A model generated the notes under the pieces. It was not told the origin of the DNA. It made no database searches and worked only from the letters and a program-made list of their open reading frames with translations. Shown here piece after piece: positions 45,567 to 46,200 of a stretch of DNA of 47,471 nt. The stretch covers positions 1-47,471 of the IMG/VR virus record IMGVR_UViG_2541047941_000003. The stretch is one strand, 5' to 3'. Made by a program: the position numbers and the translations under genes. How positions within the stretch are numbered: position 1 is the first letter of the stretch; each line of letters opens with the position of its first letter. Origin of the DNA: a virus (lineage: Duplodnaviria > Heunggongvirae > Uroviricota > Caudoviricetes).

Positions 45567-45635
45567 AACAATAGTTTGCTACTGACGCAGGGATTGATAG
45601 CCACAACCAGCATTGATCTGCCGCTCACTTAAAAC

Positions 45636-45655
45636 TACTGTATATAAAAACAGTG
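45636..45655 (+). promoter_or_regulatory. LexA box TACTGTATATAAAAACAGTG overlapping promoter of right-end operon
   Basis: CTGT-N8-ACAG at 45638-45653; TTGATC hexamer 17 bp upstream, same architecture as dinI-like promoter. Confidence 0.8.
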
Positions 45656-45673
45656 TTTATCGGAGGGCAGATC

Positions 45674-45913
45674 ATGCTTCGACAGTCAGACATCGCCGCG
45701 GCTTTCCGCGAGTCGGTATTGCGCAACTCCAAAGGCTACCAGTACCTGCACACAAAGGATTTTGTGTCAGCGCTGCGCCGGCGTGGGCTGCACTTTACCG
45801 ACGCAGAGGCTAATGCGTGGATATCTAGAGAGCAGACGTACTTTGTCGACAAAACCACCGACCATAGCGAAAACCGTTTGTGGATGATGGCCAACATGGG
45901 GAGGGTGATCTAA
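45674..45913 (+). CDS. Hypothetical LexA-regulated small protein (79 aa)
   Basis: GGAGGG RBS; ATG downstream of LexA box; TAATG overlap with next gene. Confidence 0.45.
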   Translation: MLRQSDIAAAFRESVLRNSKGYQYLHTKDFVSALRRRGLHFTDAEANAWISREQTYFVDKTTDHSENRLWMMANMGRVI

Positions 45914-46200
45914 TGGGATTCCCTTCACCAGCGACGGACTACGTTGAGCAAAGGTTGTCTGTTAACTCGATCTGCAATGTCGGCCCAAACACGCTAGTTT
46001 TCGAGCGATCTGGTGGTTACGTTGTACTGGATATCTCCCTGAAGCCAAAGCAGGGTAGCCAACTACTTATACAGCACGGCGGCGGGACGGAGCTTGCCAC
46101 GCTGAGAGGAAAGTCACTGATTACTGAAGATGGTGAAGCGATCGAGGGCGAAGCCCTGGACGATGTTACTGTCATCGGCGTCGTGACGTTTACTATCTGA
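45913..46200 (+). CDS. UmuD-like (S24 peptidase-like fold) small protein, probably non-catalytic
   Basis: GFPSPATDYVEQRL matches the UmuD/MucA-type N-terminal region as recalled from memory (not searched); only 95 aa; Ser nucleophile motif appears replaced (RSGGYV). Confidence 0.45.
   Translation: MGFPSPATDYVEQRLSVNSICNVGPNTLVFERSGGYVVLDISLKPKQGSQLLIQHGGGTELATLRGKSLITEDGEAIEGEALDDVTVIGVVTFTI

What the first reader, a model, noticed from the sequence alone, without database searches (positions are those of the whole stretch)
45613..46200. LexA-box-controlled two-gene operon at the prophage right end encoding a truncated, apparently non-catalytic UmuD-like protein
A near-consensus SOS box overlaps the promoter of two translationally coupled genes (TAATG overlap). 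The second protein begins GFPSPATDYVEQRL, matching the UmuD/MucA-type N-terminal region as I recall it, but is only 95 aa and the expected Ser nucleophile context reads RSGGYV. There is no umuC partner. This may be an SOS-triggered regulator that signals induction rather than a mutagenesis protein.
Basis: partly seen in the sequence, partly recalled or inferred. Interest (0 to 1): 0.7.

Follow-up and report, generated by a model that had tools for sequence, protein, structure and literature searches.

The report
SOS-controlled phage UmuD′-like gene pair
At the right end of an E. coli prophage sits a DNA-damage-inducible two-gene cassette, also carried by other phages and by IncX3 resistance plasmids, that encodes a small winged-helix protein plus a short "ready-cleaved" copy of the mutagenesis factor UmuD′; it belongs to the known phage HumD lineage and is probably not a signal for prophage induction.

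Summary
A 20-base SOS box (45636-45655) is 19/20 identical to the E. coli umuDC operator. It precedes two translationally coupled genes (45674-45913 and 45913-46200), and the second protein starts exactly at UmuD Gly25.

- Gene 2 is a short, dyad-less branch of the phage HumD lineage of pre-processed UmuD′ homologues. P1 HumD is annotated as complementing UmuD′.
- The family length is 105 aa. The 95-aa form here comes from a rare nonsense change (TGC→TGA).
- The missing Ser/Lys and the missing adjacent umuC are typical of this lineage. Host umuC is present in 5423 of 5426 E. coli genomes.
- Gene 1 is an uncharacterised 79-aa winged-helix protein that almost always sits directly upstream of such genes.
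- The cassette occurs in phages with cleavable S24 repressors, in a phage-plasmid and in conjugative IncX3 plasmids.
- This prophage has a separate Gifsy-type SOS-box/dinI/small-ORF module (16078-16715), which is a better antirepressor candidate.

Most likely the cassette gives or alters the UmuD′ subunit of host Pol V on SOS induction. That mechanism is inferred, not shown. The cassette is a new variant of a known kind and is of moderate interest, mainly because of the unexplained conserved partner gene.

The parts
45593..45621 (+). Upstream promoter region with two ATTGAT repeats (ATTGATAGCC at 45593-45602, ATTGATCTGC at 45612-45621). The proposed -35 is TTGATC at 45613-45618.
   Evidence: Homologous to the K-12 umuDC upstream region. 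The consensus promoter scan did not detect it.
45636..45655 (+). SOS (LexA) box TACTGTATATAAAAACAGTG, overlapping the proposed -10 TACTGT (45636-45641).
   Evidence: It is 19/20 identical to the umuDC operator. It sits in the same position in six divergent phage loci, in 72 of 80 IMG/VR loci and in an IncX3 plasmid.
45674..45913 (+). Gene 1: a 79-aa stand-alone winged-helix protein (phrog_3893, function unknown). Its ribosome-binding site GGAGGG is at 45662-45667.
45913..46200 (+). Gene 2: a short HumD-lineage UmuD'-like protein, 95 aa in this allele. Its start overlaps the gene 1 stop (TAATG), and its ribosome-binding site GGAGGG is at 45900-45905.
46198..46230 (+). Premature TGA (46198-46200) replacing the family's TGC (Cys96), followed by the now untranslated ancestral tail codons DVRQDNAVV and the ancestral stop TAG (46228-46230).
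   Evidence: Alignment with near-identical E. coli and phage RothC. The closest E. coli genomes annotate 318-nt genes. The 95-aa allele is on 4 contigs and the 105-aa allele on 103. Tail dN/dS is 0.17.
16078..16715 (+). Not part of the cassette, but bears on its interpretation. A second SOS box (16078-16097), a dinI homologue (16116-16349) and a GTG-initiated 82-aa ORF (16467-16715) form a Gifsy-type candidate antirepressor module.
   Evidence: Synteny with the Gifsy-2 dinI-gftA-irsA locus. Lemire 2011, PMC3121763, section 9.
8604..8999 (-). Prophage repressor, 131 aa, helix-turn-helix only with no Peptidase_S24 domain. It is GtgR-like.
   Evidence: Pfam. 27% identity over the full length to the Gifsy-2 repressor, E 1e-9.

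Best explanation
This is a mobile, LexA-repressed accessory cassette shared by lambdoid phages, phage-plasmids and IncX3 conjugative plasmids. Its promoter-operator is a homologue of the chromosomal umuDC one.

The two proteins
- Gene 2 encodes a short branch of the HumD lineage: a UmuD' made "ready-cleaved". After the initiator Met is removed (expected before Gly; established knowledge), its N-terminus is exactly that of UmuD'.
- Gene 2 has lost the self-cleavage loop with Ser60, and Lys97 as well. A pre-cleaved form no longer needs either.
- Gene 1 encodes a small winged-helix protein. It is translationally coupled to gene 2 and almost always found with such genes, so it is presumably a partner or regulator.

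Proposed mechanism (inferred, not shown)
1. DNA damage inactivates LexA and both proteins are made.
2. The UmuD'-like protein uses its conserved N-terminal arm to engage host UmuC.
3. This supplies or modifies the accessory subunit of Pol V without waiting for RecA-mediated UmuD processing. The benefit would be replication of the damaged element.

This window
Gene 2 carries a rare nonsense mutation that removes a conserved 10-residue tail, so its activity here may be reduced.

Confidence
The score of 0.5 is for the whole statement. Identity as an SOS-controlled HumD-lineage cassette is about 0.9. Action through host UmuC is about 0.6. A productive (activating) Pol V subunit is about 0.4.
For: Shown
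- Homology to HumD and UmuD': phrog_3469, NCBIfam HumD E 1.4e-12, UmuD/UmuD' PDB chains E 5e-5 with the start at Gly25. tblastn gives a graded series down to P1 humD (32.8% over 94% of the query). The P1 record says humD "functionally complements E. coli UmuD'" and has a LexA site.
- Regulation: the operator is 19/20 identical to umuDC, the upstream region about 75% identical, and the box is conserved across loci.
- Both genes are under purifying selection (dN/dS 0.10).
- Host umuC is ubiquitous.
- The cassette is present in S24-CI phages and in conjugative plasmids, so its target is a host function rather than a phage function.
- The dyad is also lost in long forms.

From the literature
- In AlphaFold models of Pol V, one UmuD' arm inserts next to the UmuC active site.
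- An armless UmuD' is inactive, and changing a single N-terminal residue affects mutagenesis (PMC11791011).
Against: - No experiment exists for the short family. The functional data concern the 129-aa P1 HumD only.
- The short form scores far below the NCBIfam HumD cut-off (47.7 against 120 bits) and does not match Pfam Peptidase_S24 at all.
- In the Pol V model the UmuC C-terminus binds UmuD' Ser36, Thr71, Lys73 and Glu69, which are UmuD Ser60, Thr95, Lys97 and Glu93. None of these is kept here, so productive UmuC binding is uncertain.
- The role of gene 1 is unexplained.
- The allele in this window lacks the conserved tail.
Confidence: 0.5

Rival explanations
1. Decoy or inhibitor. The dyad-less UmuD'-like protein, perhaps with the winged-helix partner, binds UmuC, UmuD/UmuD' or the RecA filament but forms inactive complexes. 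This would damp host Pol V mutagenesis or RecA co-protease activity during SOS.
For: [quoted passage not shown]
- In HK140 and mEp390 the cassette shares its SOS box with a divergent dinI gene, another RecA-filament modulator.
- UmuD/UmuD' heterodimers are known to be inactive and degraded (established knowledge).
Against: - The long-form relative P1 HumD is annotated as complementing UmuD' rather than inhibiting it.
- The exact preservation of the UmuD' N-terminus fits a working subunit at least as well.
- There are no data.
Confidence: 0.2
2. Split LexA-like regulator. The winged-helix protein (DNA binding) and the S24-fold protein (oligomerisation) act together as a two-polypeptide transcription factor made only during SOS.
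For: - The domain order, winged helix then S24 fold, mirrors LexA/CI architecture, and gene 2 starts at the residue that follows the cleavage site.
- In gene 1, helix 3, the wing and the C-terminal tail hold most of the invariant polar residues: N47, R52, Q54, K60, T61, N67, R68.
Against: - The arm motif is UmuD-specific.
- HumD-type genes work or exist without gene 1: P1, BUCT554.
- No genuine fusion proteins exist. The long database hits are frameshift fusions.
Confidence: 0.1
3. One reading: an SOS-triggered signal or antirepressor that inactivates the prophage repressor and starts induction.
For: - The operon is LexA-controlled and lies outside the immunity region, as in Gifsy phages (PMC3121763).
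- The repressor of this prophage has no S24 domain, so it needs some antirepressor.
Against: - The prophage has a positional equivalent of the proven Gifsy antirepressor locus elsewhere: SOS box, dinI, then a GTG-initiated small ORF at 16078-16715.
- Proteins 84-91% identical occur in RothC, whose CI has a Peptidase_S24 domain. The cassette also occurs in HK140 (S24 CI) and in conjugative IncX3 plasmids.
- Neither gene 1 nor gene 2 resembles GftA (for gene 1).
Confidence: 0.05
4. In this particular window gene 2 is a null or crippled allele, so the cassette does nothing here whatever the family does.
For: - The private TGC->TGA removes 10 residues whose codons are under purifying selection (dN/dS 0.17), with a tail motif recurring across HumD forms.
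- The allele is rare: 4 contigs against 103. None of 75 IMG/VR loci has it.
Against: - The stop falls at the end of the last predicted strand, and the lost tail is predicted disordered (pLDDT 38).
- UmuD itself ends only four residues later in the alignment.
- Gene 1 is intact.
Confidence: 0.15

Closest known systems
Bacteriophage P1 HumD (NCBIfam NF051876, 'HumD family'); McLenigan et al. 1999, title seen
   Same: - A pre-processed UmuD' homologue that starts M-GFPSPA.
- Preceded by a LexA box.
- Carried by a mobile element with no adjacent umuC.
- 32.8% identity over 94% of the query.
   Different: - 105 aa against 129 aa.
- The 12-residue loop with the Ser is deleted and the Lys is replaced.
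- The C-terminal half is shorter and different (ITEDGEAIEGEALD).
- It scores below the family cut-off.
- It is preceded by a coupled winged-helix gene that P1 lacks.
Chromosomal umuDC operon of E. coli
   Same: - Homologous promoter-operator (19/20 of the box, about 75% of the upstream region).
- Arm sequence 13/14 identical.
- S24 fold.
   Different: - No pro-segment, no dyad and no umuC.
- A different gene occupies the first position of the operon.
Gifsy-type LexA-controlled dinI-antirepressor operons (Lemire et al. 2011, PMC3121763)
   Same: An SOS-box-controlled small-gene operon outside the immunity region of a prophage with a short, non-cleavable repressor.
   Different: - The Gifsy-type module is present separately in this prophage (16078-16715).
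- The finding's cassette has unrelated proteins.
- It is also found in elements that need no antirepressor.
impCAB operon of IncI plasmid TP110 (Lodwick et al. 1990, cited)
   Same: A mobile-element umuD-like operon with a small extra gene placed first, under SOS control.
   Different: - ImpC is DinI-like (my own knowledge). Gene 1 shows no similarity to DinI and is a winged helix.
- imp includes impB, a umuC homologue.
'umuD' of the IncX3 plasmid backbone (the IS26/ISKox3 insertion site next to blaNDM-5 and blaSHV-12)
   Same: The same cassette: SOS box TACTGTATATGCATACAGCT, a gene 1 homologue (35% identity), then an M-GFPSPA protein.
   Different: - The plasmid copy is of the long type.
- It is usually cut at its 3' end by IS26.
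- Sometimes the left half of its box is removed by ISKox3.

Membership tests
HumD lineage (pre-processed UmuD' homologues of mobile elements) | Protein begins at the residue equivalent to UmuD Gly25, with no pro-segment | tested here: met
   phmmer aligns residue 2 to UmuD 25 and to UmuD' residue 1. Alignments.
HumD lineage (pre-processed UmuD' homologues of mobile elements) | Conserved N-terminal arm GFPSPAxDYxE | tested here: met
   Invariant in all 8 aligned sequences and in 75 IMG/VR loci. Arm dN/dS is 0.05.
HumD lineage (pre-processed UmuD' homologues of mobile elements) | LexA/UmuD (S24) beta fold | tested here: met
HumD lineage (pre-processed UmuD' homologues of mobile elements) | Score above the curated NCBIfam NF051876 cut-off (120 bits) | tested here: not met
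   47.7 bits, E 1.4e-12, covering model positions 1-121 of 129. It is a divergent short branch with its own family, phrog_3469.
HumD lineage (pre-processed UmuD' homologues of mobile elements) | LexA box directly upstream | tested here: met
HumD lineage (pre-processed UmuD' homologues of mobile elements) | Substitutes for UmuD' with UmuC in SOS mutagenesis | not testable with these tools
   Known only for P1 HumD (annotation; paper not held).
UmuD / Peptidase S24 self-cleaving proteins | Ser-Lys catalytic dyad | tested here: not met
   The Ser60 loop is deleted and Lys97 aligns with Thr.
UmuD / Peptidase S24 self-cleaving proteins | Cleavable N-terminal segment with a Cys/Ala-Gly site | tested here: not met
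   The protein starts Met-Gly.
UmuD / Peptidase S24 self-cleaving proteins | Matches Pfam PF00717 at its gathering score | tested here: not met
   No match at E <= 0.01, whereas P1 HumD and HK140 gp28 pass.
UmuD / Peptidase S24 self-cleaving proteins | Adjacent umuC-type polymerase gene | tested here: not met
   tblastn of UmuC against the window, best E 2.5. Host umuC is present in 5423 of 5426 E. coli genomes.
LexA-controlled antirepressor modules (Gifsy GfoA/GftA, 186 Tum) | LexA-repressed operon outside the immunity region | tested here: met
   The cassette is about 37 kb from the repressor gene.
LexA-controlled antirepressor modules (Gifsy GfoA/GftA, 186 Tum) | Linked to elements whose repressor cannot self-cleave | tested here: not met
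   It also occurs in HK140 and RothC (CI with Peptidase_S24) and in conjugative IncX3 plasmids.
LexA-controlled antirepressor modules (Gifsy GfoA/GftA, 186 Tum) | Sequence or positional equivalence to a proven antirepressor | tested here: not met
   Gene 1 against GftA: hhalign probability 0.2%. The positional equivalent of gftA is at 16467-16715.
LexA-controlled antirepressor modules (Gifsy GfoA/GftA, 186 Tum) | Binds and inactivates the cognate repressor | not testable with these tools
   Needs pull-down and induction assays.
Winged-helix DNA-binding proteins (gene 1) | Winged-helix fold (helix, strand, helix, helix, then a two-strand wing) | tested here: met
Winged-helix DNA-binding proteins (gene 1) | Membership of a named winged-helix family, or shown DNA binding | tested here: not met
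   No Pfam, NCBIfam or PDB sequence match. Only its own family appears in BFVD. DNA binding was not testable.

The most novel reading that the evidence does not exclude
The winged-helix protein and the dyad-less UmuD'-like protein form a previously unrecognised SOS-induced two-protein module of mobile elements (phages, phage-plasmids, IncX3 plasmids). It would either reprogramme host Pol V in a way that P1 HumD alone does not, or act as a "split LexA-like" regulator that binds DNA through gene 1 and oligomerises through gene 2.
Probability: 0.15. Interest if true: 0.6.

Novelty: new variant of a known kind. Interest (0 to 1): 0.35.

Why it matters
- Phage and plasmid copies of UmuD' are a known but little-studied way for mobile elements to tap the host's error-prone polymerase. 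That bears on damage tolerance and on mutation supply, including antibiotic-induced mutagenesis.
- This work shows a widespread short branch that has shed the self-cleavage machinery. It also shows a conserved winged-helix partner gene on which my literature searches here found nothing.
- The same cassette is part of the IncX3 plasmid backbone that carries blaNDM-5 and blaSHV-12, where it is the familiar "umuD" insertion site.
- If the pair changes Pol V activity, it would affect how fast hosts of these elements mutate under DNA-damaging drugs.
- For this prophage, the practical result is that the induction switch should be sought at the dinI-linked small ORF (16467-16715), not at this cassette.

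Tried and rejected
- Pfam on both proteins: nothing significant.
- NCBIfam and PDB sequence searches for gene 1: nothing.
- PADLOC defence models: none.
- Gene 1 against UmuC, prompted by the stray annotation "DNA polymerase V" on some homologues: no similarity, so that name appears to come from adjacency.
- Gene 1 against LexA, GftA and DinI by hhalign: no similarity.
- Longer database proteins (148-204 aa) that looked like gene 1-gene 2 fusions: three (P0374, P0498, P0464) are frameshift read-throughs into the gene 2 frame, the rest look like other assembly or reading-frame artefacts, and none is a real fusion.
- hhalign of the gene 2 family against UmuD gave a spurious register (QLLIQH with QLLIQH). 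I kept the MAFFT register because it matches the predicted strands and the GD-IV...TVK motif.
- Consensus promoter and terminator scan of 45400-46500: none found.
- The afdb50 fold library was unavailable. BFVD gave only a family member.
- The P1 HumD paper could not be read.
- The 82-aa ORF against GftA by BLASTP is not significant, so its antirepressor assignment rests on position and synteny only.
- Rfam on the whole window: only isrJ.

Full report
**Setting.** The window is E. coli chromosome carrying a prophage of about 46 kb. The integrase gene is at 1-1194, the immunity region at 8.6-9.9 kb, and myovirus-type tail genes run up to 45.5 kb. The right junction lies next to isochorismatase pseudogene fragments and an invertase gene. 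In a near-identical genome, yciI and tonB follow. The finding's operon is the last phage feature before the junction. In free phage genomes the same cassette lies between the tail-fibre genes and attP/int.

**Observation.** All sequence statements hold.
- The SOS box TACTGTATATAAAAACAGTG lies at 45636-45655. The loose motif CTGT-N8-ACAG occurs twice in the window, against 0.53 expected.
- Gene 1 (45674-45913, 79 aa) and gene 2 (45913-46200, 95 aa) overlap as TAATG, and each has a GGAGGG ribosome-binding site.
- Gene 2 starts MGFPSPATDYVEQRL. phmmer aligns residues 2-44 with UmuD 25-67, that is, with residue 1 onward of UmuD' (E 5e-5).
- There is no umuC in the window.
- The consensus scan finds no sigma-70 promoter.
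- The 90 bases upstream of gene 1 are about 75% identical to the K-12 umuDC upstream region. Shared elements are the repeats ATTGATAGCC and ATTGATCTGC, the operator (19/20) and the ribosome-site context.
- By that homology, the -35 is TTGATC (45613-45618) and the -10 is TACTGT, inside the box.

**Gene 2 is a short branch of the HumD lineage.**
- It matches phrog_3469 "UmuD-like" (E 1e-46).
- It matches the NCBIfam HumD model end to end (E 1.4e-12), but at 47.7 bits against a cut-off of 120.
- tblastn against phage genomes gives a graded series: 96% in Klebsiella phages, 50-58% in mEp390, Flotzy and Kp4884-3, 44% in an Erwinia phage, and about 33% over 94% of the length for HK140, phiKO2 and P1 humD.
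- The P1 record describes humD as complementing UmuD' and marks a LexA site in front of it.
- The AF2 model has a confident beta core (pLDDT 78-91) and a disordered arm (residues 1-21) and tail (100-105).
- Relative to UmuD, the 12 residues GDSMIDGGISDG that carry Ser60 are deleted, and Lys97 aligns with Thr.
- This loss is not special to the short branch. HK140 gp28 has Thr for the Ser, and the IncX3 protein has Thr and Met.
- That pattern fits a dyad needed only for self-cleavage, which a pre-cleaved protein never performs.
- The arm, in contrast, is invariant (M-GFPSPA-DY-E) from UmuD through every HumD form. It has the lowest dN/dS of the gene (0.05, against 0.10 for the core).

**The 95-aa length is a private nonsense allele.**
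- Near-identical E. coli prophages and phage RothC have TGC (Cys96) where the window has TGA. They continue DVRQDNAVV to a TAG at the position of 46228-46230.
- In 75 IMG/VR loci, 69 encode 105 aa and none 95.
- The exact 95-aa protein exists in public data (WP_021571835.1) on 4 contigs, against 103 for the 105-aa allele. It is therefore real but rare.
- The lost tail is predicted disordered, yet it is under purifying selection (dN/dS 0.17).
- A related acidic-then-hydrophobic C-terminus (DDxP-V/A-I) recurs in other HumD forms.

**Gene 1.**
- It has no Pfam, NCBIfam, PADLOC or PDB sequence match. Its family, phrog_3893, has no known function.
- AF2 gives a confident (pLDDT 91.3) helix-strand-helix-helix-strand-strand winged-helix fold.
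- A profile search of 1.84 billion representatives finds 197 clusters. Those I looked up are all from Enterobacterales, and nearly all are about 79 aa.
- Three of the longer hits (P0374, P0498, P0464) are frameshift read-throughs into a GFPSPA gene, which again shows adjacency.
- Most invariant polar residues lie on helix 3, the wing and the C-terminal tail.
- Gene 1 is directly upstream of a HumD-type gene in every phage locus examined but one.
- That exception is a pair of near-identical phages, vB_EcoS-733R5/716R3, where about 1.4 kb carrying an annotated site-specific recombinase gene separates the two genes.
- Gene 1 of the HK140/mEp390 subtype (80% identical) pairs with both a long (129 aa) and a short (106 aa) partner.
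- HumD-type genes also occur alone behind an SOS box, in P1 and BUCT554.
- dN/dS for gene 1 is 0.10.

**The cassette is a mobile SOS module.**
- The box sits 14-20 bases before the gene 1 start in six divergent phage loci. In 80 IMG/VR loci it is exact in 68 and has one mismatch in 4.
- In seven IMG/VR loci, foreign DNA replaces everything upstream of the ribosome site.
- Gene 1 homologues occur on 1062 plasmid records, 945 of them conjugative.
- The IncX3 backbone carries TACTGTATATGCATACAGCT, then gene 1, then a long HumD-type gene. That gene is cut by IS26 in the two IncX3 plasmids examined, next to blaNDM-5 in one and blaSHV-12 in the other.
- In one of the two, ISKox3 has removed the left half of the box.
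- A Salmonella phage-plasmid has the short form.

**Why it is probably not the induction signal.**
- The prophage repressor (8604-8999) has a helix-turn-helix domain only and resembles Gifsy-2 GtgR. An antirepressor is therefore expected.
- The window's second SOS box (16078-16097) precedes a dinI homologue, a spacer nearly identical to that of Gifsy-2, a GTG-initiated 82-aa ORF (16467-16715) and a NinB-like gene.
- That is exactly the layout of the Gifsy LexA-box/dinI/antirepressor/irsA operon, where the GTG-initiated ORF was shown to be the antirepressor (PMC3121763).
- The 82-aa protein is not detectably similar to GftA, so this assignment is positional.
- Separately, RothC carries gene 1 and gene 2 proteins 84% and 91% identical to the window's, and HK140 carries the cassette too. 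Both have CI repressors with a Peptidase_S24 domain. Conjugative plasmids have no lysogeny switch at all.

**Mechanism.**
- Shown: LexA-type control by homology, coupled expression signals, UmuD' identity of the N-terminus and fold, purifying selection, and a host-directed distribution.
- Inferred: the protein acts on host UmuC.
- The inference rests partly on P1 HumD.
- It also rests on AlphaFold models of Pol V, in which one UmuD' arm inserts beside the UmuC active site. An armless UmuD' is inactive, and single N-terminal changes matter (PMC11791011).
- The same model puts the UmuC C-terminus against UmuD' Ser36, Thr71, Lys73 and Glu69, which are absent here. A non-productive, decoy-like complex is therefore a serious rival.
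- A split LexA-like regulator remains possible but has no sequence support.

**Verdict.** The specific interpretation is largely unsupported. The object is a divergent member of a known class (phage or plasmid pre-processed UmuD'), with two points not described in the literature I could search: a dyad-less short subfamily and a conserved winged-helix partner. Its activity, the role of gene 1, and the effect of the truncation in this window all remain untested.

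Noticed in passing
window 16078-16715: A second strong SOS box (TACTGTATAAAAACACAGTA) lies upstream of a dinI homologue, followed by a GTG-initiated 82-aa ORF (phrog_340, function unknown). The layout is syntenic with the Gifsy-2 dinI-gftA-irsA antirepressor operon. This is the likely true induction switch of the prophage.
   Followed up: partly
window 8604-8999 (-): The prophage repressor is a 131-aa helix-turn-helix protein with no Peptidase_S24 domain. It is 27% identical over its full length to the Gifsy-2 repressor GtgR. A Cro-like gene (9103-9336) and a CII-like gene (9339-9878) follow.
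   Followed up: partly
window 19005-19078 (+): The only Rfam match in the window is the Hfq-binding sRNA isrJ (68.7 bits).
   Followed up: no
window 41194-42285 (-): An acyltransferase-family gene on the opposite strand is embedded among the tail-fibre genes (annotation from the near-identical genome). It may be a surface-modification (lysogenic conversion) gene. The next gene (42581-44761, 726 aa) is annotated as TolB family.
   Followed up: no
window 46495-46731 (-) and 46923-47471 (+): Isochorismatase-family pseudogene fragments and a Hin/Pin-type invertase gene (Resolvase + HTH_7) lie just outside the prophage end. They look like remnants of an older insertion at this site.
   Followed up: no
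L026, L030, L042, L047, L081, L084, L087 (IMG/VR), about 20-110 nt upstream of gene 1: In seven loci the whole promoter and SOS box are replaced, at a sharp breakpoint just before the ribosome-binding site, by the same unrelated GC-rich sequence. The cassette there must be expressed differently.
   Followed up: no
L096 3400-3500 and 4099-4133 (IncX3 pHNHZ11-1); L098 2460-2480: In blaNDM-5 IncX3 plasmids, ISKox3 removes the left half of the cassette's SOS box and IS26 cuts the 3' end of the HumD-type gene. An IncX3 plasmid without ISKox3 has the intact box.
   Followed up: partly
L003 2262-2501 (phage mEp390): The gene 1 homologue is not annotated in the mEp390 record. A 129-nt ORF on the opposite strand is annotated instead. 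In mEp390 and HK140 the SOS box lies between the cassette and a divergent dinI-like gene.
   Followed up: partly
ON470608.1 2384-4246 (phage vB_EcoS-733R5): Gene 1 and the HumD-like gene are separated by about 1.4 kb carrying an annotated site-specific recombinase gene. This pair of near-identical phages (733R5/716R3) is the only case seen where the two genes are not adjacent.
   Followed up: no
several database homologues of gene 1 (e.g. Erwinia phage Midgardsormr38 ORF33, Pantoea proteins): Some records name the 79-aa protein "DNA polymerase V". It shows no similarity to UmuC, so the name seems to have spread from its neighbour.
   Followed up: yes
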